Of a DNA stretch of 64,000 nt, positions 25,536 to 39,331 are shown one piece after another; within the stretch, counting starts at the first letter, position 1, and each line of letters opens with the position of its first letter. Source of the DNA: Clostridia bacterium (GTDB taxonomy: Bacteria > Bacillota > Clostridia > UMGS1883). The notes beneath the pieces were generated by a model that saw only the letters and a list, made by a program, of their open reading frames with translations, was not told the origin of the DNA and made no database searches. A program made the position numbers and the translations under genes. The stretch spans positions 14,178-78,177 of the forward strand of contig JAZRTB010000032.1 of assembly GCA_045651805.1 (NCBI GenBank), given 5' to 3'.

Positions 25536-26767
25536 GTCAATTTAACGAAATAAAAGAAATTTATACATCACTCGGTGTCGACGTAGAAAAAGCACTTGAA
25601 ACAGTAAAGAACATCCCCATTTCAATGCATTGCTGGCAGGGGGATGATGTAATCGGTTTTGACAGTTTTGGTGAACTTACGGGCGGAATTCAGACAACAG
25701 GTAACTACCCCGGCAGAGCAAGAAATCTCGAGGAACTTATGGCAGACCTTGACAAAGCAATGTCACTCGTCCCCGGTAAGAAAAAGGTTAATGTTCACGC
25801 CTGCTACGCTGTATTTAACGGCAATAAGGCAGACCGTGATGCTCTTAAACAGGAACACTTCAAAGCTTGGGTAGACTTTGCAAAGGAAAGAGGAATGGGT
25901 CTTGACTTTAACCCCACATTCTTCTCACACTCTATGGTAAAGGATAATCTTACACTTTCATCACCTGATGAAGACGTTAGAAAGTTCTGGGTAGAACACG
26001 GTAAAAGATGTGTTGAAATATCACAGTATTTTGCAGAAGAAACAGGTATCCCCTGCGTAATGAATATATGGATTCCCGACGGTTACAAGGATATTCCTGC
26101 AGATAGACTCGGACCAAGAGAAAGATTCAAGAAATCCCTTGATGAAATTCTTTCAATTCCTTATGACAAGGAAAAGGTTTATGTATGCCTTGAATCAAAG
26201 GTGTTCGGTATCGGTATGGAATCTTACACAGTAGGAAGTGCAGAATTCTGTCTTAACTATGTAAATCAGAAGGGTATTACCCCCCTTATGGATAACGGTC
26301 ATTATCATCCCACAGAAGTAGTTTCCGATAAGATTGCATCAATGCTTCCGTTCCACGAGAAGATTGCGCTTCACGTAACACGTGGCGTAAGATGGGATAG
26401 CGACCACGTTGTACTCTTTGACGATGAAACAAAGGAAATTGCAAAGGAAATCGTACATCATAATGCAACTGACCGAGTATTCATCGCAACAGACTACTTT
26501 GATGCATCAATAAACAGAATTTCAGCTTGGGTAACAGGTATGAGAAGCGTGCAGAAAGCACTCTTAAATGCACTCCTTCAGCCGGTAGATACACTTAAAT
26601 CACTTCAGAACGAAGGAAGACTTACCGAGCTTATGGTGCTTCAGGAAGAGCTTAAGACAGCACCCTTTGGTGATGTTTGGACAGAGTATCTTAACCGAGA
26701 ACATGTAAATGCAAACTACATTGATGAAGTGTTAAAATACGAGAAAGAAGTATTACTTCAAAGATAA
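25532..26767 (+). CDS. rhaA: L-rhamnose isomerase
   Basis: 411 aa with the conserved MHCWQGDDV motif and overall RhaA-like xylose-isomerase-type TIM barrel. Start overlaps the upstream stop (ATGA). Confidence 0.88.
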   Translation: MSQFNEIKEIYTSLGVDVEKALETVKNIPISMHCWQGDDVIGFDSFGELTGGIQTTGNYPGRARNLEELMADLDKAMSLVPGKKKVNVHACYAVFNGNKADRDALKQEHFKAWVDFAKERGMGLDFNPTFFSHSMVKDNLTLSSPDEDVRKFWVEHGKRCVEISQYFAEETGIPCVMNIWIPDGYKDIPADRLGPRERFKKSLDEILSIPYDKEKVYVCLESKVFGIGMESYTVGSAEFCLNYVNQKGITPLMDNGHYHPTEVVSDKIASMLPFHEKIALHVTRGVRWDSDHVVLFDDETKEIAKEIVHHNATDRVFIATDYFDASINRISAWVTGMRSVQKALLNALLQPVDTLKSLQNEGRLTELMVLQEELKTAPFGDVWTEYLNREHVNANYIDEVLKYEKEVLLQR

Positions 26768-26796
26768 CTTCAGCAACAAGCTTTTCGAAGCTTTTG

Positions 26797-26898
26797 CACA
26801 ACAACTCCGGTTTTCCTCTACATAATCAAACTTGCCATGAGTTTTTCATAAAGCCGGAGTTGTTGTTATATATAAGGTATAAACTTTGCCATGAGTTT
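26797..26898. promoter_or_regulatory. Repeat-rich leader at left island junction: 14-bp inverted repeat (CACAACAACTCCGG / CCGGAGTTGTTGTT) interleaved with two direct repeats AAACTT(T)GCCATGAGTTT
   Basis: Read directly: IR arms at 26797..26810 and 26854..26867; DR copies at 26828..26844 and 26881..26898. Lies in the 416-bp intergenic region downstream of rhaA. Confidence 0.3.
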
Positions 26899-27183
26899 AT
26901 ATACATAGTGTTGGGCGTTGCGGAGATTTTCCGGGCGCCCTTCCTCGTAATACAGAAATATAAATACTTCGCTTGGGGAATGAAAACAAATTTGACATCT
27001 TTTTTGACATCTACTATATTAAAAAAGCGTAATTATATATAAAAGCAGGTAACAAAGAAAACTCTATTATATTGGGGATTGTACAGAATTTGGAACTTAA
27101 TGAACTTCACGTTTTTACAGCTTTTAATCAAGTTGTCAACGAAGTCTTTTCGGAATTAATATATTAATCAGGGTGGTTAGAGT

Positions 27184-28131
27184 ATGAGTAAAGGATACGA
27201 AAAAGCAAAAAATATATATCAATCTGCTTCAGAAGAAAGCAGAAGTGAAAATAAAGATTGGGATTCATACTTTGACGAACTAGAAGATAGTGACTTCAAG
27301 CAATTTTACATAAACAATTCTAAGGAAAAAAGTTATCTTCGAAAAAAAGTTGATGGTAAAGATTTAAAAAGTTTTGCATCAAGAAAATTTTTATTAGTAG
27401 ATATTTGGAAATGTTTATATATAGAAGCATATTTGAAAAATTTTGGCGTAAAAAGAGAAGTTTTCGAGAGTGAAGTGCTGAAATATGGAAACAAAAAAAG
27501 TTCTAAAAGAATTTCTGAAAAAAGTGATGAATACAAATTAAACAAGTATGCATTAAAATATATCAAGGACTCCATTGATTCTATTACTGACGAAGGTGAA
27601 AAAATTTTCCCTGAATTTGAAAGTTTTAAAAGAGTAAAACTAAAAGATCTGACTGCCATTTTCGAATACGCCTTCGACGATCCTGATATAATGGAAAAAT
27701 TAAAGAAGGGCAGACATTGTAATTTTGATCCGGTTGAAGCGATGCTTATATTTTTTATTTTGGATGATAAATACAAGAAAGAAATTAAGCATATACGATA
27801 TAATGAGGGTCATCTGGTAAAACGAAGATATATGAACGGTCTTAAAAGATATGCAACTGCAATTGATAATAAGAGAAATTTATCACATGGGAGTATTGAA
27901 AACAACATAACTGACATTTATGAAAAAAGGGTAGAAGTATTGGAATCTGATTTACCTACAATTCATAATCTGATTGAGGATGCCATAGCCGAGTATAAAA
28001 AAGGTGATATTGAAAAAGTTATAGAAATATCAAAAAAATGCATAAAGAAATTAAAGAAATTTATTAAAAGAAATGAAAAATCAACACAAAGCACTATCCA
28101 AAACGTTGATCAAACAAAACTAAACAATTAA
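27184..28131 (+). CDS. Hypothetical Lys-rich protein (315 aa), island-encoded
   Basis: RBS GGGTGG upstream. AT-rich codon usage typical of the island. No recognised domain. Followed by its own terminator. Confidence 0.55.
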   Translation: MSKGYEKAKNIYQSASEESRSENKDWDSYFDELEDSDFKQFYINNSKEKSYLRKKVDGKDLKSFASRKFLLVDIWKCLYIEAYLKNFGVKREVFESEVLKYGNKKSSKRISEKSDEYKLNKYALKYIKDSIDSITDEGEKIFPEFESFKRVKLKDLTAIFEYAFDDPDIMEKLKKGRHCNFDPVEAMLIFFILDDKYKKEIKHIRYNEGHLVKRRYMNGLKRYATAIDNKRNLSHGSIENNITDIYEKRVEVLESDLPTIHNLIEDAIAEYKKGDIEKVIEISKKCIKKLKKFIKRNEKSTQSTIQNVDQTKLNN

Positions 28132-28190: not shown

Positions 28191-28373
28191 GACGAAAATA
28201 TGTCGTCTGCCGTATTTGTATACTTTAAAGTTTGTGTTTGTTGTTAGATAATAACATTTCTTGGTGAATAAAAAATTTTGAATCTTCACTAGTTTTAAAA
28301 AAATATGATTGGTATAATCAGAGATGTCCTGGCCGGGAAAAGTATTTATTAAATGAAAGGAGATTGTAAAGAT

Positions 28374-28895
28374 ATGATTCTTACTGAAAATACTATTAAA
28401 GAGGAACATATCTCTTGCAACGATGAGAACTTATCATTGCAAGAAAGGGAATTCTATAATATGGAATTCACCGAAGAAATCTACAATGCTGCATTAGAAC
28501 ACATGGATACAGCACTCAGATATTTGCGTTCTGCAGAAATGTACTTAATGGAAGATGATAATCTTGCGGCATTAGGGTATTTGAAATATGGTATGATACA
28601 TACCGCAAGAGCCTTGCTGAAGCTATATGACCCGGAAGACAAGAGTATTGATGTTATGAACCGTTTTGACAGAACATATGTAAAAACAGGTATTGTCTAT
28701 TCCGATAATTTCTTTTATTGGTATGACCTGGGTTTTTTATTAAAAGTTTTAGCATTTGATGCATGCTTTGAAGTTTCCGAGGATCAGGTTATCGAAGCTT
28801 TGGAATATGCGGATGCATTTTTCGAAGATGTAGACTATATCTTGTCGGAGTGCGCAGTGTGTGTAGAAGATGAACAGGAGGAATATGTATTATGA
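28374..28895 (+). CDS. HEPN-like helical domain protein (copy 1; lacks the conserved His found in copy 2)
   Basis: Segment AALEHMDTALRYLRSAEMYL...AALGYLKYGMIHTARALLKLYDPEDKSIDVMNRFDRTYVKTG follows the Pfam HEPN (PF05168-type) pattern A..YYAMFHAARALL...K.H.G.I..F. ATG at 28374 chosen after AAAGGAG; the ORF-track start is 28353. Confidence 0.55.
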   Translation: MILTENTIKEEHISCNDENLSLQEREFYNMEFTEEIYNAALEHMDTALRYLRSAEMYLMEDDNLAALGYLKYGMIHTARALLKLYDPEDKSIDVMNRFDRTYVKTGIVYSDNFFYWYDLGFLLKVLAFDACFEVSEDQVIEALEYADAFFEDVDYILSECAVCVEDEQEEYVL

Positions 28896-29524
28896 GTAAT
28901 GTGCATTATAATGCGAATGGGTCTGACTATATGTCAGACCCAAGAAATCAAAATGTAGTCGGCAAGAGTATTTGTGCCGAAGGAAGAGAGTCAGTTGCAA
29001 AGGCAACCGCGGGAGAAAGTACATTTTATAATGAAACTTTACCTCTGGATATTGTCAATCAATTTTGTGGGGTGAAGTTTTCCGAACAACAATATGCTTC
29101 TGCAAAATGCAGAATAGATATCGCAAAATCACATTTATATTCTGCAAAGAAGCACTTTAAAAAAAGAGACTATATCGCTATGCAGAGTTATATGCATTGC
29201 TCAATGAATCATGCATTAAGAGCGTTGCTGGAACTCAAGGAAGAATGTGATGAAAAACACATTGATATTATGTCGACCTTTGAAAGAAAGTATATCCATA
29301 CTAAACTTTTTAGTGAAAACAACTTCCTTTTTTGGCAAAAGATATCTTATGTGTTTGAAAAAATAGTTCGTGGGGATTTTTTCAGTTGGCCAAGAGAGCG
29401 TTTTAATGAGGCATTGACTAGAGTATCCATATTTTTAGAAGATGCTGAAGAAGTCTTATCATATTACTATATGTGTACTGATAAGGAAACTGAAAAATCA
29501 ACAGGGGGAAATGATTATGAGTAA
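28892..29524 (+). CDS. HEPN-like helical domain protein (copy 2; retains the conserved His, ...MNHALRALLELKEECDEKHIDIMSTFERKY...)
   Basis: Paralogous to 28374..28895 over the HEPN-like core. Start overlaps the upstream stop (ATGA), indicating translational coupling. Confidence 0.55.
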   Translation: MSNVHYNANGSDYMSDPRNQNVVGKSICAEGRESVAKATAGESTFYNETLPLDIVNQFCGVKFSEQQYASAKCRIDIAKSHLYSAKKHFKKRDYIAMQSYMHCSMNHALRALLELKEECDEKHIDIMSTFERKYIHTKLFSENNFLFWQKISYVFEKIVRGDFFSWPRERFNEALTRVSIFLEDAEEVLSYYYMCTDKETEKSTGGNDYE

Positions 29525-29903
29525 ATTTGAATTTATGAATTATACTGAACAGTCTTCGGTGGAAAACGCCGATGAAAAGGAACTACAGGGTGGTTCTCCA
29601 AACTTTATGGAAGATGTGTTTTGTCAAAGCAAAAAGGTCAAAAAGCTCTTTAAAAAGGACAAAAAGACTAAAAAAGCTCTTTCTAAACAAGGCAAGCAAA
29701 TAAAGAAAGTAGCTTCTTTTGGCAAAGAGATTGGCAAAAAAGTAGAAGTTATCAGTGAAGAGGTAAAAGACGTTAAGCGAGATGTCGCTAAATTCAAAAA
29801 GACAACGCGTGACAGTCTTTTTAAAGAACTCGTTTACTGCGAGGATGCCTCTGAAAGAAAACGTCTAATCGCGGAAATTCAGAGCACAGAGGTGACTATA
29901 TGA
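29517..29903 (+). CDS. Small Lys-rich protein (129 aa) with N-terminal double-glycine-leader-like segment (MSKFEFMNYTEQSSVENADEKELQGG)
   Basis: ATG at 29517 is preceded by AGGGGG at ~8 nt. It overlaps the upstream gene by 8 nt and the downstream gene by 4 nt. The core is extremely Lys-rich (KKVKKLFKKDKKTKKALSKQGKQIKK). Confidence 0.5.
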   Translation: MSKFEFMNYTEQSSVENADEKELQGGSPNFMEDVFCQSKKVKKLFKKDKKTKKALSKQGKQIKKVASFGKEIGKKVEVISEEVKDVKRDVAKFKKTTRDSLFKELVYCEDASERKRLIAEIQSTEVTI

Positions 29904-31576
29904 GTACTGAACTACTATATCGTTCGGACACCACGGGGGGGACAACCCTCCGTGGTGAAAGTGAGACAACTATAGCTAATTTTTATCCTGTGGTGAAAAA
30001 AGTGGCTAAGTATAAGTGCGGAGATAAAGTGCAAAAGAAATATGTAGTGGAGTTCTATGACCCATACTATATAGGAAAAGTTGAAATTGATTCAAAAAGC
30101 TTGGAAAAATTTGATTACTCCAGTGTGGATGATGCTTTGCAATTAAACCCTACTATATCTACTGCCGGAAAAGAAATGGCATATTATATAAGAGACCAGG
30201 CCAAAAGCGTAGAGGTAGAGGAAAAACTCCTGTTAGACACTCTAGGGTGGCATAATTGTAGTGATAATCATGTCTATTGCGCAGGTAACATGGTAATAGG
30301 AGAAATTTCTCAGAAAGACTATGTTATATCAGATTGTTTATCCAAATATCGTCTTGATATTGATGTAACTCTCAGCGAAAAAGACGCTGCAGTTCATACG
30401 ATGAAACTGATGGATATAGCTCCCGGTAGCAGTTGTTTGGTTTTTGCTTCAGGTCTGCTGGGGCCATTACGACAAATTATCCTTGATGCCGGTTTACGAC
30501 CGCCATGTATTCCTTATGTAGAAGGAGAATCTCAATGTAAAAAGACAACGCTTGTTAAACTATGTACGATTATGTACAATAGAAGTGAACTGCAGAACGA
30601 CAGCGATATAGCCTGCAAGAGAGTAAGTAGTTCAGAGTTCAAACTTGAAGAAATTATATCAGAGCTTAAAGATACCACTTTTTTGCTTGATGATCTTTTC
30701 AAGGCAGACAACAAGATGAAGAAAATTTATGAAGGTCGTATCGAAAATGCAATCAGGAATTTTGCTGATAACTCTACAAGATCAACCGCCAGAAGTGCAT
30801 TTAAGAACAATTCAAATATTATCATTACAGCAGAATATCTGATAGAAAGTAAAACTGATGTTGGGAGGCTTTTCTTGATATGTATCGGACAAGATGATGT
30901 AGATGTTGATAAACTCTCTGAATGTCAGAAAAATCCACTCGCACTTTCTACTTTTTATTGTTATTTCATAAGGCATTTATCACTGCATTATGATGCAATT
31001 GTAGAGCGACTTAAAAAGGAATATTCTGCTTTCAGGTGCTCAGCATATGACCATGAAAGTAAATTCGGGAGATTATATGAACAGTTCTTTCTTATTGATT
31101 TTGCGTTTTCGTTATATCTGGAGTATGCAGTAAGTGTTGGACTAAATATAAATAAGGAGCTTGTTAAAAATAATTTCCAAAACTATGTACGGCAAGCCTT
31201 GAAGAAGCAGAATGGAATACTCATTTCTCTCGATAGGAAAGAAGTGAAATCTGTAAATTTCTCGAAAGAACTTGTTACTATGATTAGTGATGGTTCTGTA
31301 ACCTTGTTAAAAAAAGGTTCAGAATGTTTTGAGAAGGGTGGATTTATCTATATAACCACCAGGTACTTTAATTCAAAGCTACGAGAAAAATACGAAAGAG
31401 ATTTTTCCGCGAGAAGCATTACTTCGTATTTCAGAGACCGGTACATATCAGAGGTAGACGCAGATAACCGTCAAAAGAAATATAAAGGGAGACGCTACCT
31501 TAAATTAAATAAAAAAGAATTAATGAAAGACGCCTATGATACCGGTTATGAAATCAATAATCTGTTTTATAACTAA
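29900..31576 (+). CDS. Hypothetical protein (558 aa), last gene of the tandem HEPN operon
   Basis: Long ORF with island-type composition. ATGA overlap with the upstream gene. No Walker A or other recognised motif seen. Confidence 0.6.
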   Translation: MSTELLYRSDTTGGTTLRGESETTIANFYPVVKKVAKYKCGDKVQKKYVVEFYDPYYIGKVEIDSKSLEKFDYSSVDDALQLNPTISTAGKEMAYYIRDQAKSVEVEEKLLLDTLGWHNCSDNHVYCAGNMVIGEISQKDYVISDCLSKYRLDIDVTLSEKDAAVHTMKLMDIAPGSSCLVFASGLLGPLRQIILDAGLRPPCIPYVEGESQCKKTTLVKLCTIMYNRSELQNDSDIACKRVSSSEFKLEEIISELKDTTFLLDDLFKADNKMKKIYEGRIENAIRNFADNSTRSTARSAFKNNSNIIITAEYLIESKTDVGRLFLICIGQDDVDVDKLSECQKNPLALSTFYCYFIRHLSLHYDAIVERLKKEYSAFRCSAYDHESKFGRLYEQFFLIDFAFSLYLEYAVSVGLNINKELVKNNFQNYVRQALKKQNGILISLDRKEVKSVNFSKELVTMISDGSVTLLKKGSECFEKGGFIYITTRYFNSKLREKYERDFSARSITSYFRDRYISEVDADNRQKKYKGRRYLKLNKKELMKDAYDTGYEINNLFYN

Positions 31577-31589
31577 AACGGATTATCTC

Positions 31590-31660
31590 CCTCTATAATT
31601 TTACCGTAGGGGGAATGTATCCCCCTATGGTAAAATTATAGAGGGATAATAAGACAACAA
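31590..31660. terminator. Very long near-perfect hairpin (~30-bp stem: TTATCTCCCTCTATAATTTTACCGTAGGGGG / CCCCCTATGGTAAAATTATAGAGGGATAA) after the 558-aa gene; probable terminator/insulator or recombination site
   Basis: Inverted repeat read directly from the sequence. Arms are separated by ~8 nt (AATGTATC). No strong U-tract. Confidence 0.4.
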
Positions 31661-31751
31661 GCTCTATTGGGCAAGAAGAATATTACCTATCCTTCACGGG
31701 AAATATTCAGAATAAGTGAAGATATAATATCGAAGGAGGGATTGATGCTGG

Positions 31752-31940
31752 ATGAATAAACAGCAAATGAAATTGACTAAATTCTGTGAAGAATTCGATG
31801 TCCCGCGTAGTACAGCACTCAAATGGGTGCACTCTCAGGGATTCCCGGCATATAACCTTTGTGGACACTGGTACATCGATTTGCCGGAATATTATAGGTG
31901 GAGAGAGAATCAACACCATATATCGTATAAATATGCTTAA
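31752..31940 (+). CDS. xis: Excisionase/AlpA-like helix-turn-helix DNA-binding protein (Xis)
   Basis: 62 aa. LTKFCEEFDVPRSTALKWVHSQGFPAYNLCGHWYIDLPEYYRW matches MerR-like/excisionase HTH proteins (..SRSTIYRWV..G.FPA.K.GG.WR...E...W). Sits immediately upstream of the integrase. Confidence 0.6.
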   Translation: MNKQQMKLTKFCEEFDVPRSTALKWVHSQGFPAYNLCGHWYIDLPEYYRWRENQHHISYKYA

Positions 31941-31958
31941 TATATTATAAACAACAAA

Positions 31959-31995
31959 TCCGGAACAGTATGGAGAGGACACTTACTGTTCCGGA
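31959..31995. promoter_or_regulatory. 12-bp perfect inverted repeat TCCGGAACAGTA...TACTGTTCCGGA between xis and int, overlapping the int RBS region
   Basis: Read directly from the sequence; 13-nt spacer. Confidence 0.3.
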
Positions 31996-32012
31996 AGAAA
32001 GGAGAATGTTTA

Positions 32013-33128
32013 TTGAAAAAAAGAGCAGACGGAAGATATTGTAAGCAGATATTTATTGGCTATAAGCCTGATGGTACAAGAAGAATGAAGACCATTTACG
32101 GAAAAACTATCAGAGAAGTAGAGAAGAAAGAATCCGAAATCAAGGGGCAGATGGAGCAGGGAATAAATGTGTCTGAAAACCTGACAGTGGCAGAGTGGGC
32201 AGACATCTGGCTTAAAACATTTAAGACGGATATCGCCAACAACACCTATGTGAGATATGCAGGCATAGTCAGGAATCAGATTATTCCGCTGCTTGGCAAT
32301 GTCTTGATTCCGAATATAAGACTTAATATGTTGCAAAAACTGATAAATGATATGGCGGAGAAATATGCTCCGGCAACAGTTAAGAAAACAAAGGATGTTC
32401 TGCATCAAATGTTTCAGCAAGCGGTAAGGTCACAATATATCGCCGTAAATCCTGCTGAAAGCATAGTGACACCTAAATTTCATCAGAATGACAGAGAGCC
32501 ACTTTCAACAGAGCATGTAAGAAATATAGAAGAGTTCTGTAGGAACTATAAACACGGAGCGTTTGTAATGGCATTACTATATACCGGAGTCAGAAGGGGA
32601 GAACTACTTGCATTGCAGGTTAAGGATGTGGACTTTGAGAACGGTTATATAACCATTAATAAGTCGGTTGAGTTTTTATGTAACTCTCCCAACCTGAAAA
32701 CTCCGAAAACTCCGAAAAGCAACCGCTTGATACCGATACTCAAACCATTGATTCCATATCTGCAAAGGGCTGTTGACGGCAAAGAAAGCACAGACTTTAT
32801 ATTTACCGGGTACGACGGAAATCTACACACAAAGTCAGCGGTTCAAAGGTTGTTTAAAGCTTTTAACAGAGATTATAACCGCTACATAAACAGATTCAGA
32901 ACAGAGGATGAGTACGAAAGCGTTCATTTTACGATGCATCAGTTCAGACACACCTTTTGTACGATGATGTATGATGCAGGAGTTGATGTGAAAACGGCGC
33001 AGGAAATATTAGGACATAGTAGTATTAATGTAACTCTTGATATATATACGCATCTCAGTCAATACAAAAAGAAAATCAATATTGATAAGATGAACGCATA
33101 TATTGAAAGCCAATTCAAACCAGAATAA
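32013..33128 (+). CDS. int: Site-specific tyrosine recombinase (phage integrase family)
   Basis: TTG start 7 nt after AAAGGAGA. The C-terminal catalytic region HQFRHTFCTMMYDAGVDVKTAQEILGHSSINVTLDIYTHL carries the R..H..R..Y signature of tyrosine integrases. An N-terminal SAM-like/core-binding region is present. Confidence 0.85.
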   Translation: MKKRADGRYCKQIFIGYKPDGTRRMKTIYGKTIREVEKKESEIKGQMEQGINVSENLTVAEWADIWLKTFKTDIANNTYVRYAGIVRNQIIPLLGNVLIPNIRLNMLQKLINDMAEKYAPATVKKTKDVLHQMFQQAVRSQYIAVNPAESIVTPKFHQNDREPLSTEHVRNIEEFCRNYKHGAFVMALLYTGVRRGELLALQVKDVDFENGYITINKSVEFLCNSPNLKTPKTPKSNRLIPILKPLIPYLQRAVDGKESTDFIFTGYDGNLHTKSAVQRLFKAFNRDYNRYINRFRTEDEYESVHFTMHQFRHTFCTMMYDAGVDVKTAQEILGHSSINVTLDIYTHLSQYKKKINIDKMNAYIESQFKPE

Positions 33129-33130
33129 AG

Positions 33131-33170
33131 CACAGTGAATTTCTTTATGATTCACTGTGCTTTATTTTTC
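33131..33170 (+). terminator. Rho-independent terminator after int (AAGCACAGTGAAT-TTCTTTATG-ATTCACTGTGCTT + TATTTTT)
   Basis: 13-bp stem plus U-tract. Its 3' half is the left copy of the 29-nt direct repeat. Confidence 0.7.
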
Positions 33171-33190
33171 CGCCAAAAAACTTGTATATA

Positions 33191-33219
33191 TTGACAAAGA
33201 ACATATCATAGTATATAAT
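33191..33219 (+). promoter_or_regulatory. Consensus sigma-A-type promoter TTGACA-17 nt-TATAAT upstream of the XRE/DUF3990-like gene
   Basis: TTGACA at 33191..33196, a 17-nt spacer, TATAAT at 33214..33219, then RBS AGGTGG and ATG at 33252. Confidence 0.55.
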
Positions 33220-33251
33220 ATAGATGTTATCAAATGATAGGTGGCGGTAAA

Positions 33252-34097
33252 ATGAAAAGCTTAATTAAAAATATACGAATCTCTGCTAATATGAGTCAGG
33301 AGCAATTTGCTGATTGTATCGGAACTACCGTGCTTTCTGTTAACAGATGGGAAAACGGTAAAACTGAACCTAATAAAATGGCTCAAAAGCAACTATACCA
33401 ATTTTGTAAGGATAATAATATTGATTTAGCAAAAATTATTGTAGAATCAAAAGAATATGAAAATATTGAGAATAAGCTGGTTTTATATCATGGCTCTAAA
33501 AAAGGTATAAATGGGGATATTGCACCCATTAGTCGTGGAGAGTGCGATTTTGGTAAGGGGTTCTATATGGGAACAAGTACTTTGCAACCCCTTACTTTGG
33601 TGTGTGCAGAAGAAAAACCTAAATTTTATACTGTTGAACTGGATTTGACGGGTCTTAAAGTTCTCAATGTTGAAATCGGTCTTGAATGGGCACTCTTGAT
33701 AGCATATTACCGCAAGGAAATGGAGTCTGCCATAGGTACGGAAATCTATGAAAAGTATGCTAATTTTGCAAGTGGTTATGATGTTATAGTAGGTTATATT
33801 GCAAATGATCGTATGTATACTGAATTATCTCGTTTCTTCAATAAAACTTTAACTGACACGGCATTAATACATTGCTTATCTGCACTTGATCTTGGCAAGC
33901 AGTATGTTGCAATTACAGAAAAAGCGTGTAGGCAAATCAAAGTCCTGAAAGAAGAAAGTTTATCTCAGCTTGAACTTGCAATTCTTCGTGATATGAGTGT
34001 AGAACGCAGAAAAGAAGGAATAGCTCTTGCTGATGAAATTGAAGTGAAATATCGCCGTGAAGGAAAGTTTTTTGATGAGATTCTGGGAGGAAAATGA
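33252..34097 (+). CDS. XRE-family HTH fused to a DUF3990-like domain
   Basis: The N-terminus (IRISANMSQEQFADCIGTTVLSVNRWENGKTEPN) is a Cro/C1-type HTH. The C-terminal part has the LYHGS...DFGKGFY motif that I recall as characteristic of DUF3990. ATG at 33252; the ORF-track start is 33234. Confidence 0.55.
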   Translation: MKSLIKNIRISANMSQEQFADCIGTTVLSVNRWENGKTEPNKMAQKQLYQFCKDNNIDLAKIIVESKEYENIENKLVLYHGSKKGINGDIAPISRGECDFGKGFYMGTSTLQPLTLVCAEEKPKFYTVELDLTGLKVLNVEIGLEWALLIAYYRKEMESAIGTEIYEKYANFASGYDVIVGYIANDRMYTELSRFFNKTLTDTALIHCLSALDLGKQYVAITEKACRQIKVLKEESLSQLELAILRDMSVERRKEGIALADEIEVKYRREGKFFDEILGGK

Positions 34098-34519
34098 TTA
34101 TGAATAAATCCTTACTATTAACTCTTTGTGATACTCAAGGTAAATTATTTGAGTTGTCAGGAAAGCGTGGCTATGACAGCGAAGCCTTTATTAAGACGTT
34201 TATGACTACTGATATTTCAAAGGATATGGACAAGGAGTTTCACCATGTCCAGTGGGCAGGGAAGGAATATATTATGTCTCGTATGGAAGATGAGAATTCT
34301 GATGCTATAATCGGTAACGGAATTGTTTACGATAACGAAACATTGTACTGGATAGGTTATATCTATAGATACTGGAATATATACACGGGAGAATCAAGCA
34401 AAGACATTTACAAGCAAGCACCGGTAAAGACTATGCAAACTGTTTATTTAATGTATCATACCATGAGCCCTGAACTTGCAATAGACAGACTAAAAGAGTC
34501 TTACAAAGATAGCAAGTGA
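34094..34519 (+). CDS. Small hypothetical protein (141 aa), translationally coupled partner of the XRE/DUF3990-like gene (possibly DUF3791-like)
   Basis: ATGA overlap with the upstream stop. No recognised motif. A partner role is inferred only from the common DUF3990/DUF3791 gene-pair arrangement. Confidence 0.45.
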   Translation: MIMNKSLLLTLCDTQGKLFELSGKRGYDSEAFIKTFMTTDISKDMDKEFHHVQWAGKEYIMSRMEDENSDAIIGNGIVYDNETLYWIGYIYRYWNIYTGESSKDIYKQAPVKTMQTVYLMYHTMSPELAIDRLKESYKDSK

Positions 34520-34591
34520 TTTGGATTTCATTTGTTCGGCGCATATCAAATTTTGATAATAATGTATTTTATAACAAAAGGTGACAATATA

Positions 34592-35824
34592 ATGAGAACT
34601 ACGAATTTAAAAATGCCAGAGGGATATATATCGATGCTTTCAAATTTAGCCGCTATAACTTCCCAACACGGAGAACTTGTTAAATTTAATGATGAAAGTT
34701 ATCGTAGATTGGTAGACAATCTTTCGAGCAAATTAATAAAGAATAGCGTAATAAATGATATTGTACAAAAACAATCAAGGATGTTACAGTCGTTTAATTA
34801 CTCGCTATATTCCGGTAATATTGGCATTCAAGCATTAACATCGCAATGGAATACTATGGCTCGAATAGCAGAATCGTTCCAAACGCCTGAAATCAAGATG
34901 TTGAAGGATTCTTTAATACGAAATGAAATTTCAGCAGTTAGCACGTTTGTTGACTCTATAAAAGGCATGCGTATAGAAGCGGCCAATATTGCATTTTTGA
35001 AAATGGCACCAATTTTTGAGAGTGTATCACTCCCTAAAGGAATGAAAAGTGTCATTAAAGATATTCATGTAGATACTGCAAGACGATTATCTACAGCTAA
35101 AAACATTAGTTTTGATAGTGATAAAAAATTATTCTACGTCGAATATCAACCGAAAGACACAGCAACAGTTTCTGAAACAAATATTCTTTGTTCGTCATTG
35201 CATCTTCTGTCAGATATAGATGAAGCAGATTTAATTTCGTTTATGAATTACTTGGGAAATCACCTTCCCTTTGCTAGCACTCATCGTACCGGAAAAAGAA
35301 TAAATGAAATAATATCAAAGTGGAATGAATTTTCTGATTTTGATTGTGATTATTACTACCATGCTCGGGCTCTTCCAGAGGGCAAGGAACCTTATACAGA
35401 GCAAGAACTTCGTCAAGCTCCATATGGGTTAACCTGGCAAGGACGCTATAATTACACGGGTGAAAGTCACTATTACTTTTCAAATGTGCCCAAAGGTGCT
35501 CTTATGGAGGTCGCAAAACACACAAAGGAAAAAAGAGTCCAAATTGCGAAATTAAGACCGACAAGAAGCATACGTATGATAGATTTGTCACAAGAAATTA
35601 CAACACAGAATAAATTCTTAGAATACTGTAGATTGAAACCTCAACCAGGAGATTATCCAAATATTAAAAGAGAGTATTTGCTACCCTGTTATGTTGCCAA
35701 TTGTTGTGAACTAAATGGCATAGAAGGAATAAAGTATCATGGTAGCAAAGAATATAAGAATTATGTTTCTTGGGAAGATACATATTTTGATTTTGTGGAT
35801 TCGGAAATACAAAATAACATATAA
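34592..35824 (+). CDS. RES-domain protein (NAD+-targeting toxin-like) with ~290-aa N-terminal extension
   Basis: The C-terminal ~140 aa match the RES-domain signature: WQGRYNYTGESHYYFSNVPKGALMEVAKH (cf. GGRWN..G.PvlYlS.sp.tAllEvl.H), then MIDLSQE, then CCELNGIEGIKYHGSKEYKNYVSW (cf. G.DGi.yPS....N.vlf). ATG at 34592 after AAAGGTGA; the ORF-track start is 34532. Confidence 0.6.
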   Translation: MRTTNLKMPEGYISMLSNLAAITSQHGELVKFNDESYRRLVDNLSSKLIKNSVINDIVQKQSRMLQSFNYSLYSGNIGIQALTSQWNTMARIAESFQTPEIKMLKDSLIRNEISAVSTFVDSIKGMRIEAANIAFLKMAPIFESVSLPKGMKSVIKDIHVDTARRLSTAKNISFDSDKKLFYVEYQPKDTATVSETNILCSSLHLLSDIDEADLISFMNYLGNHLPFASTHRTGKRINEIISKWNEFSDFDCDYYYHARALPEGKEPYTEQELRQAPYGLTWQGRYNYTGESHYYFSNVPKGALMEVAKHTKEKRVQIAKLRPTRSIRMIDLSQEITTQNKFLEYCRLKPQPGDYPNIKREYLLPCYVANCCELNGIEGIKYHGSKEYKNYVSWEDTYFDFVDSEIQNNI

Positions 35825-35857
35825 CAAAATAGAGCTTCTTTGGATTGGAGAGATATT

Positions 35858-37537
35858 GTGAAATTTGAGAGGATTACAATAAAGAATTTTAGAAACTTTG
35901 AAGATATTACACTTGATTTATCAAATAAAAATATTTTCTTTGGATTAAATGATGTGGGAAAAACTAATTTCTTATATGCAATGAGGTATTTGTTCGATAA
36001 GGATGTTCGAAAACACAATCTTATTGATTCAGATTTTCATAATAAACAATTAGATCTGCCAATCGAAATAGTCGTGACATTAGATATTAGTGACACAGAC
36101 AATGTTGATTGTAAAAAGTTGCGTGCAAGATTAAAAGGAGCACTGCGTAGCGAACATACAAAAGTATATATTAAGTTATTAGCTCAATATAATAAAGGCG
36201 AATTGATTGCTATGCCAATTTTGTTTTGGGGTGGCGATATGGGACATCTTCAAGAAATGAAACAAAGAGGATATTTATACGAAATTGATTATGTGTTTAA
36301 TGTGATTTATATTGACTCGTATGTCGATTTGCATTTGTTGTTTAAAAAGAATGTTGGACAGCTTGTGAAGAATGAAAAAGAAGAAGATAAAGAAGTGCTG
36401 AACAATATTCAGTTAAATGTAAATGAATTGAATAAAAACATTTCTTCATTATCAGGAATTAAAGAGTTTGAAGAAAAGATTACCCCTGAGTATAAAAAGT
36501 TTAGGAATGAAGGGATTTCTGTAACTGTAAAGTCTGAAATAGCGGTAAAAGGACTATATTCTAATATCGTACCATATATAAAACAAGATAATGATGATAA
36601 CTTATATCCAACTGCCGGAGAAGGAAGAAAGAAATTACTAGCATATTCCATTTTTGATATTCTTTCAGATGAGTCAACTGAAAAGAAAATCAATTTATTT
36701 CTTATAGAAGAACCTGAAAATCATTTACATAAATCTATGCAAATAGCGTTATCTCAAATTCTTTTTTCTAACGATAAATACTCATATCTTTTTGTTACAA
36801 CTCATTCTCCGTTTGTTCTTTATGAAATGGACAATGTTAATTTGGTGCGTATTTATAGTGAACGACATATTGATAGCAAGAGTGTGTTTTACACTGTTCC
36901 TTCTGAGTTTGAGAAAAACAAAAAGATGTTAAACCAACAATTATCAGAAGCAATATTTGCTGACAGAGTTTTACTGGTAGAAGGTCCATCCGAAAAAATG
37001 TTATTTTGTAAAGTTTTATATGTTATCAATCCATTTTATGAAGTTGAAGGCGTATATGTTCTGCCAGTAGATGGTATAGGCTTTAGAAAATATATTGACA
37101 TATTAGATGATTTGAACATTCACAATATAATTAAAACCGATAATGATTTGCGTGCGGTTAAAAAAGGTGGACCATATAGTACATTAGGTTTTTCACGATG
37201 CAATAACTATATTGGTGAAGATATCCTACCAACAGATCAAATAGCTGAAAAAACAATAAAATCAAAAAGAGATTTATATGAAGCTAATAAGGAAACTCTC
37301 AATTCTATTCGCAAGGAGTATTCGATATATTTATCAAAAGTGGATTTAGAAAACGACTTAGATGAATGTATGCATGAAAGATTGGTGTCTTTGTTAGGTG
37401 TTGATGATCCGGTAGACCATTTGCAAGATTCAAAACATTACAATATGGTTGAATTAATAGGAAAGTTAAGCGATGAAGATTGTAGAAACATTTACAATCA
37501 TTACAATTTTGCATGTTTGAAGGAGGTTGTTGAATGA
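35858..37537 (+). CDS. gajA: Gabija GajA: OLD-family ATP-dependent endonuclease (ABC-type ATPase + Toprim)
   Basis: N-terminus ERITIKNFRNFEDITLDL...FFGLNDVGKTNFLYAMRYLFDK has a Walker A motif. The C-terminal Toprim-like region has LLVEGPSEKMLF...IIKTDNDL...SKVDLENDL...NMVELIGKLSDEDCRNIYNHYNFACLKE, close to my recollection of Bacillus GajA. GTG 35858 chosen after GGAG; the ORF-track TTG is at 35840. Confidence 0.8.
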   Translation: MKFERITIKNFRNFEDITLDLSNKNIFFGLNDVGKTNFLYAMRYLFDKDVRKHNLIDSDFHNKQLDLPIEIVVTLDISDTDNVDCKKLRARLKGALRSEHTKVYIKLLAQYNKGELIAMPILFWGGDMGHLQEMKQRGYLYEIDYVFNVIYIDSYVDLHLLFKKNVGQLVKNEKEEDKEVLNNIQLNVNELNKNISSLSGIKEFEEKITPEYKKFRNEGISVTVKSEIAVKGLYSNIVPYIKQDNDDNLYPTAGEGRKKLLAYSIFDILSDESTEKKINLFLIEEPENHLHKSMQIALSQILFSNDKYSYLFVTTHSPFVLYEMDNVNLVRIYSERHIDSKSVFYTVPSEFEKNKKMLNQQLSEAIFADRVLLVEGPSEKMLFCKVLYVINPFYEVEGVYVLPVDGIGFRKYIDILDDLNIHNIIKTDNDLRAVKKGGPYSTLGFSRCNNYIGEDILPTDQIAEKTIKSKRDLYEANKETLNSIRKEYSIYLSKVDLENDLDECMHERLVSLLGVDDPVDHLQDSKHYNMVELIGKLSDEDCRNIYNHYNFACLKEVVE

Positions 37538-39036
37538 ATCTATCTCCAGTTCAAGAGAAAATAGTTAGTACGCAAGGTAATTTAATTGTAAGAGCAAGCG
37601 CAGGTACCGGTAAGACACACACAATGGTTAATAAGATTGCTAAAGAAACTACCGACAATCGCTCACACAAGGTTGTTGCAGCCATTACTTTTACAATAAA
37701 AGCAGCTCAAGAAATTAAAGAACGTTTGGTTATTGATACTAATCAGCATTTTATCGGAACTAATAATAGCTTTGCAATAGAAGAAATTATAAAACCATTC
37801 ATGAAGGACGTATATGGCGAAGAATATAATATTGATATGGGTACAGATTATGCATTAAAAGTAAATACATATCAAGAAGGATTAGATAAGATAAAAAATG
37901 AACATACTCTTTGCTCATATCAAAACACTAAAGAGAATTTTATATTTGAATTAGCTTACAATATAGTATTAAAATCCAGAGCTTGTCAATTGTATCTTAA
38001 GGCAAAGTATTTCAAAATATATATAGATGAATATCAGGATTGCGACAGAACTATGCATGATTTTTTCATGTATCTATGTGATGAACTAAAAATAGACACT
38101 TTTGTTGTTGGTGATGAAAAGCAATCCATTTATATTTGGAGAGGAGCTTATCCAGAAGCATTCAAAAGTATTTGGGAAAAAGAAAATTTTGAGAAAATAT
38201 TTATGGGAGATAACTTTCGCTCTTCGCAACAAATTCAAAATTATTCTAATCTTTTATGCGAAGAAACAAGGGAACTATATAAAGCAACAGAAACCGCAGA
38301 TAATATAATATGGATATCTCCTGATAGAGTGAATTATGCAAATGAAATATTGTCATACATTGATCCTAATAAAAGTTCAGCATTGTTAAGGTTTTCAAAT
38401 GATAATGCAAAAAAATGTGCCGAAGCATTAACATCTGCTGGTTTAGAATATATTTATATACCTCAAACACCTATTGCCGATATTTCAACTGAAACAGCGT
38501 GGTTATATACATCAATAGCAAAATATATAATCTTAACAAAATATTCGGTTTACGACTTGATTTCGGAAATACCTGTTGAAGGCGATGAGAGTATTAAAGC
38601 AGTATCAAAAATAGATGGACTGCTCATTAAGTGCAATGAAAATTCGAAGAATGAAATGCTTTTTAAGGATAGTGTAAATAAATTGGCGAAGCATCTTGGA
38701 TACGAAACAAGAGACGAAGATCTGAAAAAATTATATCAGACTATTTCGGATGAGAAATACTATCCCGCTTATGATACGGAAAGCTATAAACATATATCAA
38801 TTACTTTTCATTCTTCAAAAGGGCTAGAATTTGAACAGATCATTGTTTTTGCGGAAGATTATCGGTTATCAGATATGCCAAGTATATATAACCACTATGT
38901 TGCAGTAACTAGAGCAAAAAGCAAACTAATAATAGTAAAATCAACTGATTACAATGCAAATTGTTTTCAAGTCAACCTGCAAAAAATATTTAAACAAAGT
39001 TCTGTTGAATTGATCGATATTATCACATTTAGATGA
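37534..39036 (+). CDS. gajB: Gabija GajB: UvrD/PcrA-like superfamily-1 helicase
   Basis: 500 aa. Walker A VRASAGTGKTHTMVNKIA. Has a DExQD-like motif (IYIDEYQDCD) and later UvrD-type motifs (VVGDEKQSIY, TFHSSKGLEFEQIIV, AVTRAKSKL). 4-nt overlap with gajA. Confidence 0.8.
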   Translation: MNLSPVQEKIVSTQGNLIVRASAGTGKTHTMVNKIAKETTDNRSHKVVAAITFTIKAAQEIKERLVIDTNQHFIGTNNSFAIEEIIKPFMKDVYGEEYNIDMGTDYALKVNTYQEGLDKIKNEHTLCSYQNTKENFIFELAYNIVLKSRACQLYLKAKYFKIYIDEYQDCDRTMHDFFMYLCDELKIDTFVVGDEKQSIYIWRGAYPEAFKSIWEKENFEKIFMGDNFRSSQQIQNYSNLLCEETRELYKATETADNIIWISPDRVNYANEILSYIDPNKSSALLRFSNDNAKKCAEALTSAGLEYIYIPQTPIADISTETAWLYTSIAKYIILTKYSVYDLISEIPVEGDESIKAVSKIDGLLIKCNENSKNEMLFKDSVNKLAKHLGYETRDEDLKKLYQTISDEKYYPAYDTESYKHISITFHSSKGLEFEQIIVFAEDYRLSDMPSIYNHYVAVTRAKSKLIIVKSTDYNANCFQVNLQKIFKQSSVELIDIITFR

Positions 39037-39037
39037 C

Positions 39038-39071
39038 AAAAAAGAAGCTTTTCTTGTAAAGCTTCTTTTTT
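39038..39071 (+). terminator. Rho-independent terminator after gajB (AAAAGAAGCTTT-TCTTGT-AAAGCTTCTTTTTT)
   Basis: 12-bp stem plus U-tract directly after the stop at 39034..39036. Confidence 0.7.
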
Positions 39072-39216
39072 GAAATTCTTTATAATTCATTGTGCTTTAT
39101 TTTTTGTCATAGGAGAAAGGATGCACCTATTTATGTCTGTAATGTATAGTAACAGTCAGACAAATGTTAGTCAAATGTTAGTCAAAATGGTTAAAATCAC
39201 TATATGGAAGAAAATG

Positions 39217-39254
39217 TAAAAACGGCTCAACCCTATTGGTTAAGCCGTTTTCTG
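39217..39254 (-). terminator. Rho-independent terminator of tRNA-Glu (minus strand): GAAAACGGCTTAACC-AATAGG-GTTGAGCCGTTTTT
   Basis: Inverted repeat AAAACGGCTCAACC/GGTTAAGCCGTTTT on the plus strand. On the minus strand it lies just 3' of the tRNA and ends in a U-run. Confidence 0.55.
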
Positions 39255-39255
39255 A

Positions 39256-39331
39256 TGGTGACCCCACGGGGAATCGAACCCCGGTCTTCGCCGTGAGAGG
39301 GCGACGTCCTAGGCCGCTAGACTATGGGGCC
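39256..39331 (-). tRNA. tRNA-Glu (anticodon CUC)
   Basis: The reverse complement reads GGCCCCATAGTCTAGCGGCCTAGGACGTCGCCCTCTCACGGCGAAGACCGGGGTTCGATTCCCCGTGGGGTCACCA. It has a 7-bp acceptor stem, a GGGG-TTCGATT-CCCC T-arm, an anticodon loop CTCTCAC and an encoded CCA. Collinear with Bacillus tRNA-Glu. Confidence 0.85.

What the first reader, a model, noticed from the sequence alone, without database searches (positions are those of the whole stretch)
33141..39104. 29-nt near-perfect direct repeat brackets the RES + Gabija module
TTCTTTATGATTCACTGTGCTTTATTTTT at 33141..33169 is the 3' half of the int terminator hairpin. It recurs as TTCTTTATAATTCATTGTGCTTTATTTTT at 39076..39104 (27/29 identical), just after the gajB terminator and ~150 bp before tRNA-Glu. 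At the right copy the 5' half of the hairpin is missing, so this is not simply a reused terminator. The ~5.9-kb segment between the copies, carrying the XRE/DUF3990-like, partner, RES, gajA and gajB genes, therefore looks like a cassette inserted by site-specific recombination at a site just downstream of int. The repeat would be the att-like duplication. This would be a hotspot for defence-cargo exchange.
Basis: seen in the sequence. Interest (0 to 1): 0.65.

Follow-up and report, generated by a model that had tools for sequence, protein, structure and literature searches.

The report
Repeat-bounded defence cargo slot beside integrase
The repeat is real and marks the two edges of a swappable slot for anti-phage genes inside a small integrase-carrying island inserted next to a tRNA-Glu gene, but it looks more like an insertion scar of the integrase gene's terminator than a dedicated attachment site.

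Summary
Observation confirmed. 33141-33169 and 39076-39104 match 27/29, extendable to 31/34 (33136-33169 / 39071-39104). There are only two copies in 64 kb and none are expected by chance. The left copy is the loop plus 3' arm of a perfect 17-bp hairpin overlapping the int stop codon. The right copy has no 5' arm and does not fold.

Related loci show that about 26.95-39.25 kb is an integrase-only island at tRNA-Glu(CTC). It is absent from a syntenic genome (L040). The repeat-bounded 5.9 kb lies inside this island, between int and the island's tandem GTTAGTCAAA motifs, which directly follow int in cargo-less relatives.

Every close relative carries different defence or toxin-antitoxin cargo in this slot. 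In the closest one (L014) homology to the window stops at 33169 and resumes at 39085, the two repeat arms. The hotspot idea is therefore supported.

The att-like, site-specific part is not established:
- A significant repeat exists in only 2 of 5 loci with both junctions.
- The right junction varies between loci.
- The window cargo is a composite: a PDC-M42-like pair plus a RES-Gabija module that occurs separately in L107, with no repeat copy between them.
- No empty slot or excision product was found.

Most likely the repeat is a recombination scar at a palindromic terminator. This is a new member of a known kind, of moderate to low interest.

The parts
26775..26925 (.). Conserved non-coding element downstream of rhaA. 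This is the chromosomal left flank of the island.
   Evidence: 84% identical to L040 9241-9407, where it lies about 300 nt from tRNA-Glu with no island. It is also found at the starts of L014 and L106.
26991..27012 (+). Two tandem TTTGACATCT motifs at the left end of the island. Inferred left-arm integrase-binding sites.
   Evidence: Homology between the window and L096 starts here although the left chromosomal neighbours differ. The reverse complement of the right-end motif is TTTGACTAAC.
27184..28131 (+). 315-aa gene of unknown function, in a variable left-hand position of the island.
   Evidence: No family hit. It is replaced by other genes in L014, L096 and L106.
28353..31576 (+). Island backbone: HEPN-like paralogues (28353-28895 and 28892-29524), a 153-aa gene (29442-29903) and a 558-aa gene (29900-31576).
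   Evidence: Conserved in L014 and L096 at 48-80% amino-acid identity. Weak HEPN hit. Otherwise no family hits.
31752..31940 (+). 62-aa helix-turn-helix protein, excisionase-like.
   Evidence: Weak HTH_17 hit. 80-92% identical in L014, L096 and L015, always directly upstream of int.
32013..33128 (+). Tyrosine integrase.
   Evidence: Phage_integrase E = 1e-28, with SAM-like and central domains. phrog_1 integrase E = 8e-78. The integron-integrase model scores 62 bits against a cutoff of 265.
33124..33169 (+). int terminator hairpin: 17-bp perfect stem, 9-nt loop and T-run. Its loop, 3' arm and T-run form the left repeat copy (33136-33169).
   Evidence: The hairpin is shared by L014, L106 and L020.
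33191..33219 (+). Consensus sigma-70 promoter (TTGACA, 17-nt spacer, TATAAT) at the start of the cargo.
   Evidence: 12/12 match. The same promoter follows the hairpin in L106.
33234..34519 (+). Cargo module 1: XRE-DUF3990 (33234-34097) and a 141-aa partner (34094-34519), a PDC-M42A/B-like pair.
34556..39072 (+). Cargo module 2, with its own terminator at 39037-39072:
- RES-like gene (start 34532 or 34592, end 35824).
- gajA (35840-37537).
- gajB (37534-39036).
   Evidence: PADLOC GajA and GajB hits. Window 34556-39070 is 94.6% identical to L107 311-4827, which has different flanks.
39071..39104 (+). Right repeat copy: the last 4 nt of the 5' arm, the loop, the 3' arm and the T-run. It is read as a relic of the pre-insertion int terminator.
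   Evidence: It is contiguous with the flank conserved in L014 and L020.
39166..39186 (+). Two tandem GTTAGTCAAA motifs with an 11-nt period. Inferred right-arm integrase-binding sites.
   Evidence: The motifs directly follow the int stop in cargo-less relatives that target tRNA-Glu or tRNA-Lys. No integrase or intervening island is present in the empty-site genome L040.
39218..39252 (-). Terminator hairpin immediately 3' of tRNA-Glu.
   Evidence: Nearly the same hairpin accompanies int relatives next to tRNA-Lys (L027).
39256..39331 (-). tRNA-Glu(CTC), the anchor of the island.
   Evidence: Int relatives down to 58% identity (L021) sit beside this tRNA, and those at 36-39% sit beside tRNA-Lys genes.

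Best explanation
About 26.95-39.25 kb of the window is an integrase-only defence island inserted beside tRNA-Glu(CTC). Its backbone is HEPN-like genes, a 558-aa gene, xis and int. Its right end consists of two tandem GTTAGTCAAA motifs (inferred integrase arm sites) followed by the tRNA.

In the window's sublineage a cargo slot has opened between the int terminator hairpin and those motifs. The 5.9 kb now in the slot is two self-contained modules that run from a consensus promoter to a terminator: a PDC-M42-like pair and RES-Gabija.

The left repeat copy is the working int terminator. The right copy is what remains of the same terminator as it stood before insertion (loop, 3' arm and T-run), still joined to its original downstream sequence TGTCATAGG... 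The repeat is therefore a duplication scar left when foreign DNA was joined in at the palindromic terminator.

Inferred mechanism: the join was made by recombination that used the hairpin as short homology, or by an illegitimate joint. This could be a Campbell-type single crossover of a circle carrying a hairpin fragment, or recombination anchored in int with an illegitimate distal joint. It possibly happened once in the ancestor of the window and L014. Later cargo turnover proceeds by homologous exchange through the conserved flanks (int plus hairpin on one side, arm copy plus arm motifs plus tRNA on the other) and by further insertions and deletions.

The cargo travels with the whole island if Int and Xis excise it at tRNA-Glu. 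The repeat also allows precise loss of the cargo by recombination between the copies.

Shown: the island boundaries, the slot position, the cargo diversity and the coincidence of breakpoints with the repeat. Inferred: the arm-site role of the motifs and the recombination mechanism.
For: - Empty-site genome L040 has conserved synteny on both sides but no island.
- Cargo-less relatives L101, L021, L024, L025 and L027-L032 have the int stop running directly into GTTAGTCAAA repeats and then a tRNA. The window cargo therefore lies between int and its own arm region.
- The slot cargo differs in each locus:
  - Window: PDC-M42-like pair, RES-like gene and Gabija.
  - L014: a SIR2-like gene and a GmrSD_N/NsnA-like gene.
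  - L020: a PDC-M13 trio.
  - L096: MNT and HepT.
  - L015: DUF2442.
  - L038: an unknown 251-aa gene.
- Window-L014 homology ends at 33169 and resumes at 39085.
- The right junction varies. The window keeps loop plus arm, L014 keeps the arm only and L020 keeps only TGTGCTTT... L015, L096 and L038 keep none and share a different block.
- The RES-Gabija module ends at 39070 in an independent context (L107), so the right copy belongs to the resident locus and not to the cargo.
- There is no repeat copy between the two modules.
- The cargo starts with a 12/12 promoter and ends with a terminator.
- GC content is 0.30-0.35 in the cargo against about 0.40 in the flanks.
Against: - A 34-nt duplication whose edges coincide with cargo polymorphism in two loci is also what site-specific integration would leave.
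- The hairpin sequence is more conserved than the adjacent int DNA (95% against 75% between the window and L020). This hints at a sequence-specific role.
- Short-homology or illegitimate recombination is inferred only by exclusion. No donor, intermediate or empty slot was observed.
- The comparators are different species or short metagenome contigs, not conspecific strains.
- The island's left att copy could not be identified.
Confidence: 0.55

Rival explanations
1. The hairpin 3' arm is a secondary attachment site. Circular promoter-bearing cassettes are captured there by a tyrosine recombinase, the adjacent Int or one acting in trans. The repeat is the duplicated core, as in an integron-like platform.
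For: - The repeat is highly non-random.
- Polymorphism boundaries in the window and L014 coincide with the arm.
- In L014 the repeat extends rightward and in the window leftward, around a common 20-nt core. That is expected if different partner sites share a core.
- The site is a 17-bp inverted repeat around a 9-nt spacer next to int, which resembles a core-site layout.
- The hairpin sequence is unusually conserved.
- L107 may be a circular form of one module.
Against: - There is no significant flanking repeat in L020, L015 or L096 although they carry cargo in the same slot.
- The right junctions are variable.
- The cargo is a composite with no motif between the modules, and L107 lacks the motif at its module ends.
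- The two copies differ at 3 of 34 positions.
- Relatives place the integrase's usual target beside tRNA genes, and I saw no resemblance of the arm to the tRNA T-arm by eye (no formal test).
- The integron-integrase model is far below its cutoff.
- No empty slot or array was seen.
Confidence: 0.2
2. Tandem accretion. Two islands integrated one after the other at the tRNA-Glu site. The tRNA-proximal one lost its integrase, as in a cis-mobilisable element, and the repeat is the internal att.
For: An integrase-less segment flanked by direct repeats next to an int-bearing segment at a tRNA gene is the classical signature of accretion. This comparison rests on my own knowledge of Streptococcus thermophilus cis-mobilisable elements and of tycheposon arrays.
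Against: - The arm motifs occur only at the tRNA side (39166-39186) and not beside int at 33170-33233, where there is a cargo promoter instead.
- The repeat has no similarity to the tRNA or to the island's left end.
- The hairpin 5' arm overlaps the int stop codon, so the left copy is part of the int transcription unit.
- The model needs two precise deletions.
Confidence: 0.05
3. The repeat is a coincidence, or a reused member of a common terminator family, with no link to cargo insertion.
For: The sequence is AT-rich and terminator-like, and the gajB terminator is adjacent.
Against: - No match was found in 100 shuffles.
- The right copy cannot fold.
- The motif is absent elsewhere in the window and in unrelated loci, apart from chance 20-mers with unrelated flanks.
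- The breakpoints coincide with it.
Confidence: 0.03

Closest known systems
Integrase-only defence-carrying islands at tRNA hotspots (Hochhauser et al. 2023, PMC10121019) and tycheposons (Hackl et al., bioRxiv 10.1101/2020.12.28.424599)
   Same: A small island with a tyrosine integrase and no other mobility genes. It is anchored at a tRNA gene, absent from a syntenic relative, and carries variable defence cargo including Gabija.
   Different: The host is an uncultured Oscillospiraceae-like Clostridia lineage. No second att copy was detected. The variable slot is specifically between int and the arm motifs and is bracketed by a duplicated terminator arm.
Defence hotspots and 'morons' of prophages and satellites (P2/P4 hotspots, Rousset et al. 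2022; moron concept of Hendrix and colleagues; both cited from my own knowledge)
   Same: Self-contained promoter-to-terminator modules inserted between conserved element genes. Different defence systems occupy the same position in related elements, and exchange through the conserved flanks is plausible.
   Different: The element is not a phage or a satellite: there are no PHROG hits apart from int. A 34-nt duplication of the upstream terminator at the distal edge is not a described feature of those hotspots.
Integrons (IntI, attI, attC cassettes)
   Same: A tyrosine recombinase gene lies next to a position where gene modules accumulate. A hairpin-forming sequence sits at the junction and a short repeat lies at the module edges.
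   Different: - Int is a phage-type integrase (TIGR02249 scores 62 bits against a cutoff of 265) and is co-oriented with the cargo.
- The cargo has its own promoter.
- There is no hairpin at the distal end of the cargo and none between modules.
- The repeat is absent in several relatives.
Cis-mobilisable elements and tandem accretion at ICE att sites (from my own knowledge)
   Same: An integrase-less segment bounded by direct repeats, adjacent to an int-bearing segment.
   Different: The repeat is not the island's att, and the arm motifs are not duplicated.

Membership tests
tRNA-anchored integrative genomic island | Tyrosine integrase adjacent to a tRNA gene. | tested here: met
   Int at 32013-33128. 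tRNA-Glu at 39256-39331. Relatives have int 75-150 nt from tRNA-Glu or tRNA-Lys.
tRNA-anchored integrative genomic island | Presence/absence polymorphism with conserved flanks. | tested here: met
   L040 has the rhaA-side element, about 300 nt, tRNA-Glu and the same ABC operon, with no int. It is a different species, with an ABC ATPase 74% identical.
tRNA-anchored integrative genomic island | Direct att repeats at both island ends. | tested here: inconclusive
   No left-end copy scores above shuffles. The only candidates are weak: GGGGAATGAAAAC at 26968, and AAATATAAATAC against AAATGTAAAAAC.
tRNA-anchored integrative genomic island | Excision and integration activity. | not testable with these tools
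   Needs PCR or long reads from the organism.
Site-specific cassette platform (att-like duplication at 33141 / 39076) | Every inserted cassette is flanked by the same core repeat. | tested here: not met
   The repeat is significant only in the window and L014. It is not significant in L020, L015 or L096. There is no copy between the two modules of the window.
Site-specific cassette platform (att-like duplication at 33141 / 39076) | An unoccupied site with a single copy, or a circle joined at the core. | tested here: inconclusive
   None was found among 7 related slots. The L107 terminal overlap is not at the motif.
Integron | IntI-type integrase. | tested here: not met
   TIGR02249 scores 62 bits against a cutoff of 265. 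NF011946 scores 48 bits against a cutoff of 435.
Integron | attC hairpin at the distal end of each promoterless cassette. | tested here: not met
   The right copy does not fold. The cargo has a 12/12 promoter.
Gabija defence system (cargo) | GajA (ATPase plus OLD-type TOPRIM domain) followed by GajB (UvrD-like helicase). | tested here: met
   PADLOC GajA E = 5e-239 and GajB E = 1e-191. Pfam gives AAA_15 plus OLD-like_TOPRIM, and UvrD-helicase. Defence activity was not tested.
Rho-independent terminator (left copy) | Stable stem-loop followed by a T-run directly after a stop codon. | tested here: met
   -26 kcal/mol, z = -9.2, followed by TTTATTTTT. The simple scan missed it because its loop limit is 8 nt. 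Termination itself was not tested.

The most novel reading that the evidence does not exclude
The palindromic int terminator doubles as a capture site. Its 3' arm would act as an attI-like secondary site at which this phage-type tyrosine integrase, or a partner acting in trans, inserts circular, promoter-bearing defence modules. That would be an integron-like cassette platform embedded in tRNA-anchored islands of gut or rumen Clostridia. The flipped hairpin loop and the possibly circular RES-Gabija contig would be footprints of that activity.
Probability: 0.12. Interest if true: 0.7.

Novelty: new member of a known kind. Interest (0 to 1): 0.35.

Why it matters
Defence systems are known to cluster in integrase-marked hotspots. 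How individual systems get in and out of such elements is mostly unexplained.

This locus gives a small, well-delimited example in an uncultured Clostridia lineage. One fixed slot, between int and the element's arm sites, holds six different defence or toxin-antitoxin cargos in related islands. In two of them there is a visible junction scar.

If the scar were shown to come from recombinase action, it would define a new cassette-capture mechanism. If it is an illegitimate or short-homology scar, as I think, it is a useful but ordinary illustration of moron-type turnover. The slot can also be mined for candidate defence genes, such as the 251-aa and 342-aa proteins and the RES-like protein.

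Tried and rejected
- Exact-protein look-ups of the window's int, RhaA and ABC ATPase found nothing on record. No conspecific strain was found. The only 100%-identical ABC ATPase cluster (P0121, one NCBI contig) probably represents the source genome itself; the next closest is 83%.
- A scan of JGI metagenomes with the 20-mer ATTCAYTGTGCTTTATTTTT gave 13 hits, all with unrelated flanks, so they are chance matches.
- The viral collection has no copy of the repeat and only integrases at 36% identity or less.
- Phage and plasmid collections have no DNA match to xis-int or to the cargo.
- A search for a third repeat copy or an att copy at the island's left end or upstream of xis gave nothing above chance. 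The same was true for relatives within 10 kb.
- Rfam matched only the tRNA.
- The tandem-island model was rejected because the arm motifs are not duplicated.
- The loop-as-crossover idea (hairpin stems as core sites, loop as overlap region) was rejected as a general rule. The L014 right copy lacks the loop, and L106 carries the same cargo start with the loop flipped.
- Family searches on the backbone genes gave no informative hit.
Full report
**1. The observation**

With up to 3 mismatches allowed they are the only copies in 64 kb, and no match occurred in 100 dinucleotide shuffles. The similarity extends to 34 nt, 33136-33169 against 39071-39104, 31/34 identical.

The left copy is the loop, 3' arm and T-run of a perfect 17-bp palindrome at 33124-33140 / 33150-33166. 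Its 5' arm overlaps the int stop codon, and it folds at -26 kcal/mol with z = -9.2. The right copy starts at the last bases of the gajB terminator (39037-39072). It has only 4 nt of the 5' arm and does not fold on its own. It ends 152 nt before tRNA-Glu(CTC) at 39256-39331, minus strand.

- XRE-DUF3990, matching PADLOC PDC-M42A.
- A 141-aa partner, matching PDC-M42B.
- A 410-430-aa protein with a sub-threshold RES match.
- GajA.
- GajB.

**2. What surrounds it**

rhaA ends at 26767, and GC content falls from about 0.40 to 0.29-0.36 between about 27 and 39 kb. The low-GC stretch contains:
- An unknown 315-aa gene.
- Two HEPN-like paralogues.
- A 153-aa gene and a 558-aa gene.
- A 62-aa helix-turn-helix (excisionase-like) gene.
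- int.
- The repeat-bounded cargo.
- tRNA-Glu.

An ABC-transporter operon follows the tRNA.

In L040 (GCA_045604905.1, ABC ATPase 74% identical) the same ABC operon and tRNA-Glu are present. The conserved non-coding element that follows rhaA in the window (26760-26919, 84% identical) lies only about 300 nt from the tRNA. There is no integrase. The whole interval from about 26.95 to 39.25 kb is therefore an inserted island.

**3. Where the cargo sits within the island**

The integrase has homologues from 91% down to about 30% identity in Oscillospiraceae and other Clostridia assemblies.

In the more distant relatives (L021, L024, L025, L027-L032) and in L101 (67%), the int stop codon runs straight into 2-3 tandem GTTAGTCAAA motifs with an 11-nt period. 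The 3' end of a tRNA gene (Glu or Lys) follows 75-150 nt later on the opposite strand. These motifs accompany the integrase whichever tRNA is targeted, and the empty-site genome L040 shows none in the tRNA-proximal sequence read. They therefore belong to the element. I infer that they are arm-type integrase-binding sites.

In the window they are at 39166-39186, to the right of the right repeat copy. A related motif in the opposite orientation (TTTGACATCT, twice) marks the left end at 26991-27012. Homology to L096 begins there although the chromosomal neighbour differs. The 5.9-kb segment is therefore internal to the island, between int and its own arm region. It is not a separately integrated unit beside the island.

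**4. The slot is a cargo hotspot**

All close relatives have something different between int and the arm motifs:

| Locus | int identity | Cargo in the slot |
|---|---|---|
| L014 | 91% | SIR2-like gene plus GmrSD_N/NsnA-like gene, 2.3 kb |
| L020 | 76% | DUF3791-DUF3990-DUF3791, a PDC-M13 trio |
| L096 | 77% | MNT-HepT, followed by a relic of a DUF2442 gene |
| L015-L019 | 76% | DUF2442 |
| L038 | contig cut | Unknown 251-aa gene |
| L106 | 92%, truncated | Same cargo start as the window |

Between the window and L014, homology runs from 31652 to 33169 and resumes from 39085 to 39284. That is from the end of the left arm copy to the start of the right arm copy. L014 has its own significant repeat, ATTCACTGTGCTTTATTTYTTG (score 39 against a shuffle maximum of 28).

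**5. Why I do not accept the att interpretation as it stands**

(a) L020, L015 and L096 carry cargo in the same slot without a flanking repeat above chance. L096 has no hairpin at all, and L015 has a hairpin of different sequence.

(b) The right-hand junction differs from locus to locus. The window keeps the loop and the arm, L014 keeps only the arm, and L020 keeps only TGTGCTTT... L015, L096 and L038 keep nothing and share a different right-hand block, a DUF2442-type terminator. A dedicated crossover site should give a constant junction.

(c) The window cargo is a composite. L107 (Logan SRR27608061) is 94.6% identical to window 34556-39070 only, which is RES-GajA-GajB with its terminator. It has unrelated flanks and lacks the motif. 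No repeat copy separates this module from the PDC-M42-like pair. Homology to L107 stops at 39070, one base before the right copy begins, so the right copy belongs to the resident locus. It is contiguous with the TGTCATAGG... block that L014 and L020 also have. It is best read as the old int terminator minus its 5' arm.

(d) The integrase is phage-type and scores far below the integron-integrase cutoffs. Its relatives all sit beside tRNA genes.

(e) No empty slot with a single hairpin, no multi-cassette array and no circle joined at the motif was found. The search was limited by the look-up caps.

**6. Points in favour of a sequence-specific role**

The hairpin is 41/43 identical between the window and L020, while the adjoining xis-int DNA is 74.8% identical. 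The repeat shares a common 20-nt core but extends leftward in the window and rightward in L014. The site has the inverted-repeat, spacer, inverted-repeat layout of a recombinase core. For these reasons I keep the att-like model as a live rival at about 0.2.

**7. Best explanation**

The repeat is a duplication scar at a palindromic terminator that borders an intra-island cargo slot. Foreign promoter-to-terminator modules were joined in using the hairpin as short homology or as an illegitimate joint, possibly once in the ancestor of the window and L014. This displaced the original loop, 3' arm and T-run by 5.9 kb. Later turnover uses the long conserved flanks and further insertions and deletions.

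The cargo would move with the island if Int and Xis act at tRNA-Glu. Recombination between the copies could delete it cleanly. The mechanism is inferred and confidence is 0.55. Tandem accretion and coincidence are rejected, as set out under the rival explanations.

**8. Comparison with known systems and verdict**

The island fits the known class of integrase-only, tRNA-anchored defence islands (PMC10121019; tycheposons). The slot behaves like the defence or moron hotspots of prophages and satellites (from my own knowledge). It resembles an integron only superficially and fails the integron membership tests.

It is a new member of a known kind. The repeat-bounded slot is a tidy detail with modest mechanistic potential. 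Interest is 0.35.

Noticed in passing
window 33141-33149; L020 1731-1739; L014 5638-5646; L106 1900-1907: The 9-nt loop of the int terminator is flipped between relatives. The window loop TTCTTTATG is the exact reverse complement of the L020 loop CATAAAGAA. L014 (CGTAAAGAA) and L106 (CATAAGAA) have the L020 orientation, although L106 carries the same cargo start as the window. This looks like hairpin-mediated loop inversion.
   Followed up: partly
L107 1-4995 (Logan SRR27608061_6714): This contig carries the RES-GajA-GajB module, 94.6% identical to window 34556-39070. Its first and last 25 nt are identical, so it is either a circle of about 4.97 kb or a segment flanked by direct repeats. Joining the ends reconstitutes a 95-aa ORF that by eye resembles the start of an integrase of another family; it has no Pfam hit.
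   Followed up: partly
window 33124-33166 vs L020 1717-1759: The hairpin is 95% identical between loci whose adjoining xis-int DNA is only 74.8% identical. Either the sequence itself is constrained or it was recently exchanged.
   Followed up: partly
L106 119-1887: In this relative the integrase is truncated at its 5' end (238 aa). It sits directly behind an unrelated 353-aa ORF that follows the rhaA-side conserved element. This is a decayed island that lacks the backbone.
   Followed up: no
window 28353-31646: The conserved backbone consists of HEPN-like paralogues, a 153-aa gene and a 558-aa gene. It has no informative family hit in Pfam, PADLOC, PHROGs or NCBIfam, yet it is kept at 48-80% amino-acid identity in L014 and L096. 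It ends with a 27-nt near-perfect palindrome at 31588-31646. It may be another defence system or the island's maintenance module.
   Followed up: partly
window 26775-26925; L040 9241-9407: A conserved structured non-coding element lies downstream of rhaA. It has the inverted repeat CACAACAACTCCGG / CCGGAGTTGTTG and a duplicated AAACTTKCCATGAGTTT. It is 84% identical in a different species and has no Rfam match.
   Followed up: no
window 26955-26980 and 39207-39226: There are weak candidates for the island's true att core. One is AAATATAAATAC against AAATGTAAAAAC; the other is GGGGAATGAAAAC against the tRNA T-loop GGGGAATCGAACC. In L096 and L015 the best left-versus-right matches fall on the same right-hand segment, but none beats shuffles.
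   Followed up: partly
L096 9560-9700; L015 11440-11640; L038 1085-1125: A second sublineage of the slot shares a DUF2442 gene or its 3' relic, together with the terminator GGAGGCGAAAAYYCGCCTCC. In L096, newer cargo (MNT-HepT) has overwritten most of the DUF2442 gene from the int side.
   Followed up: partly
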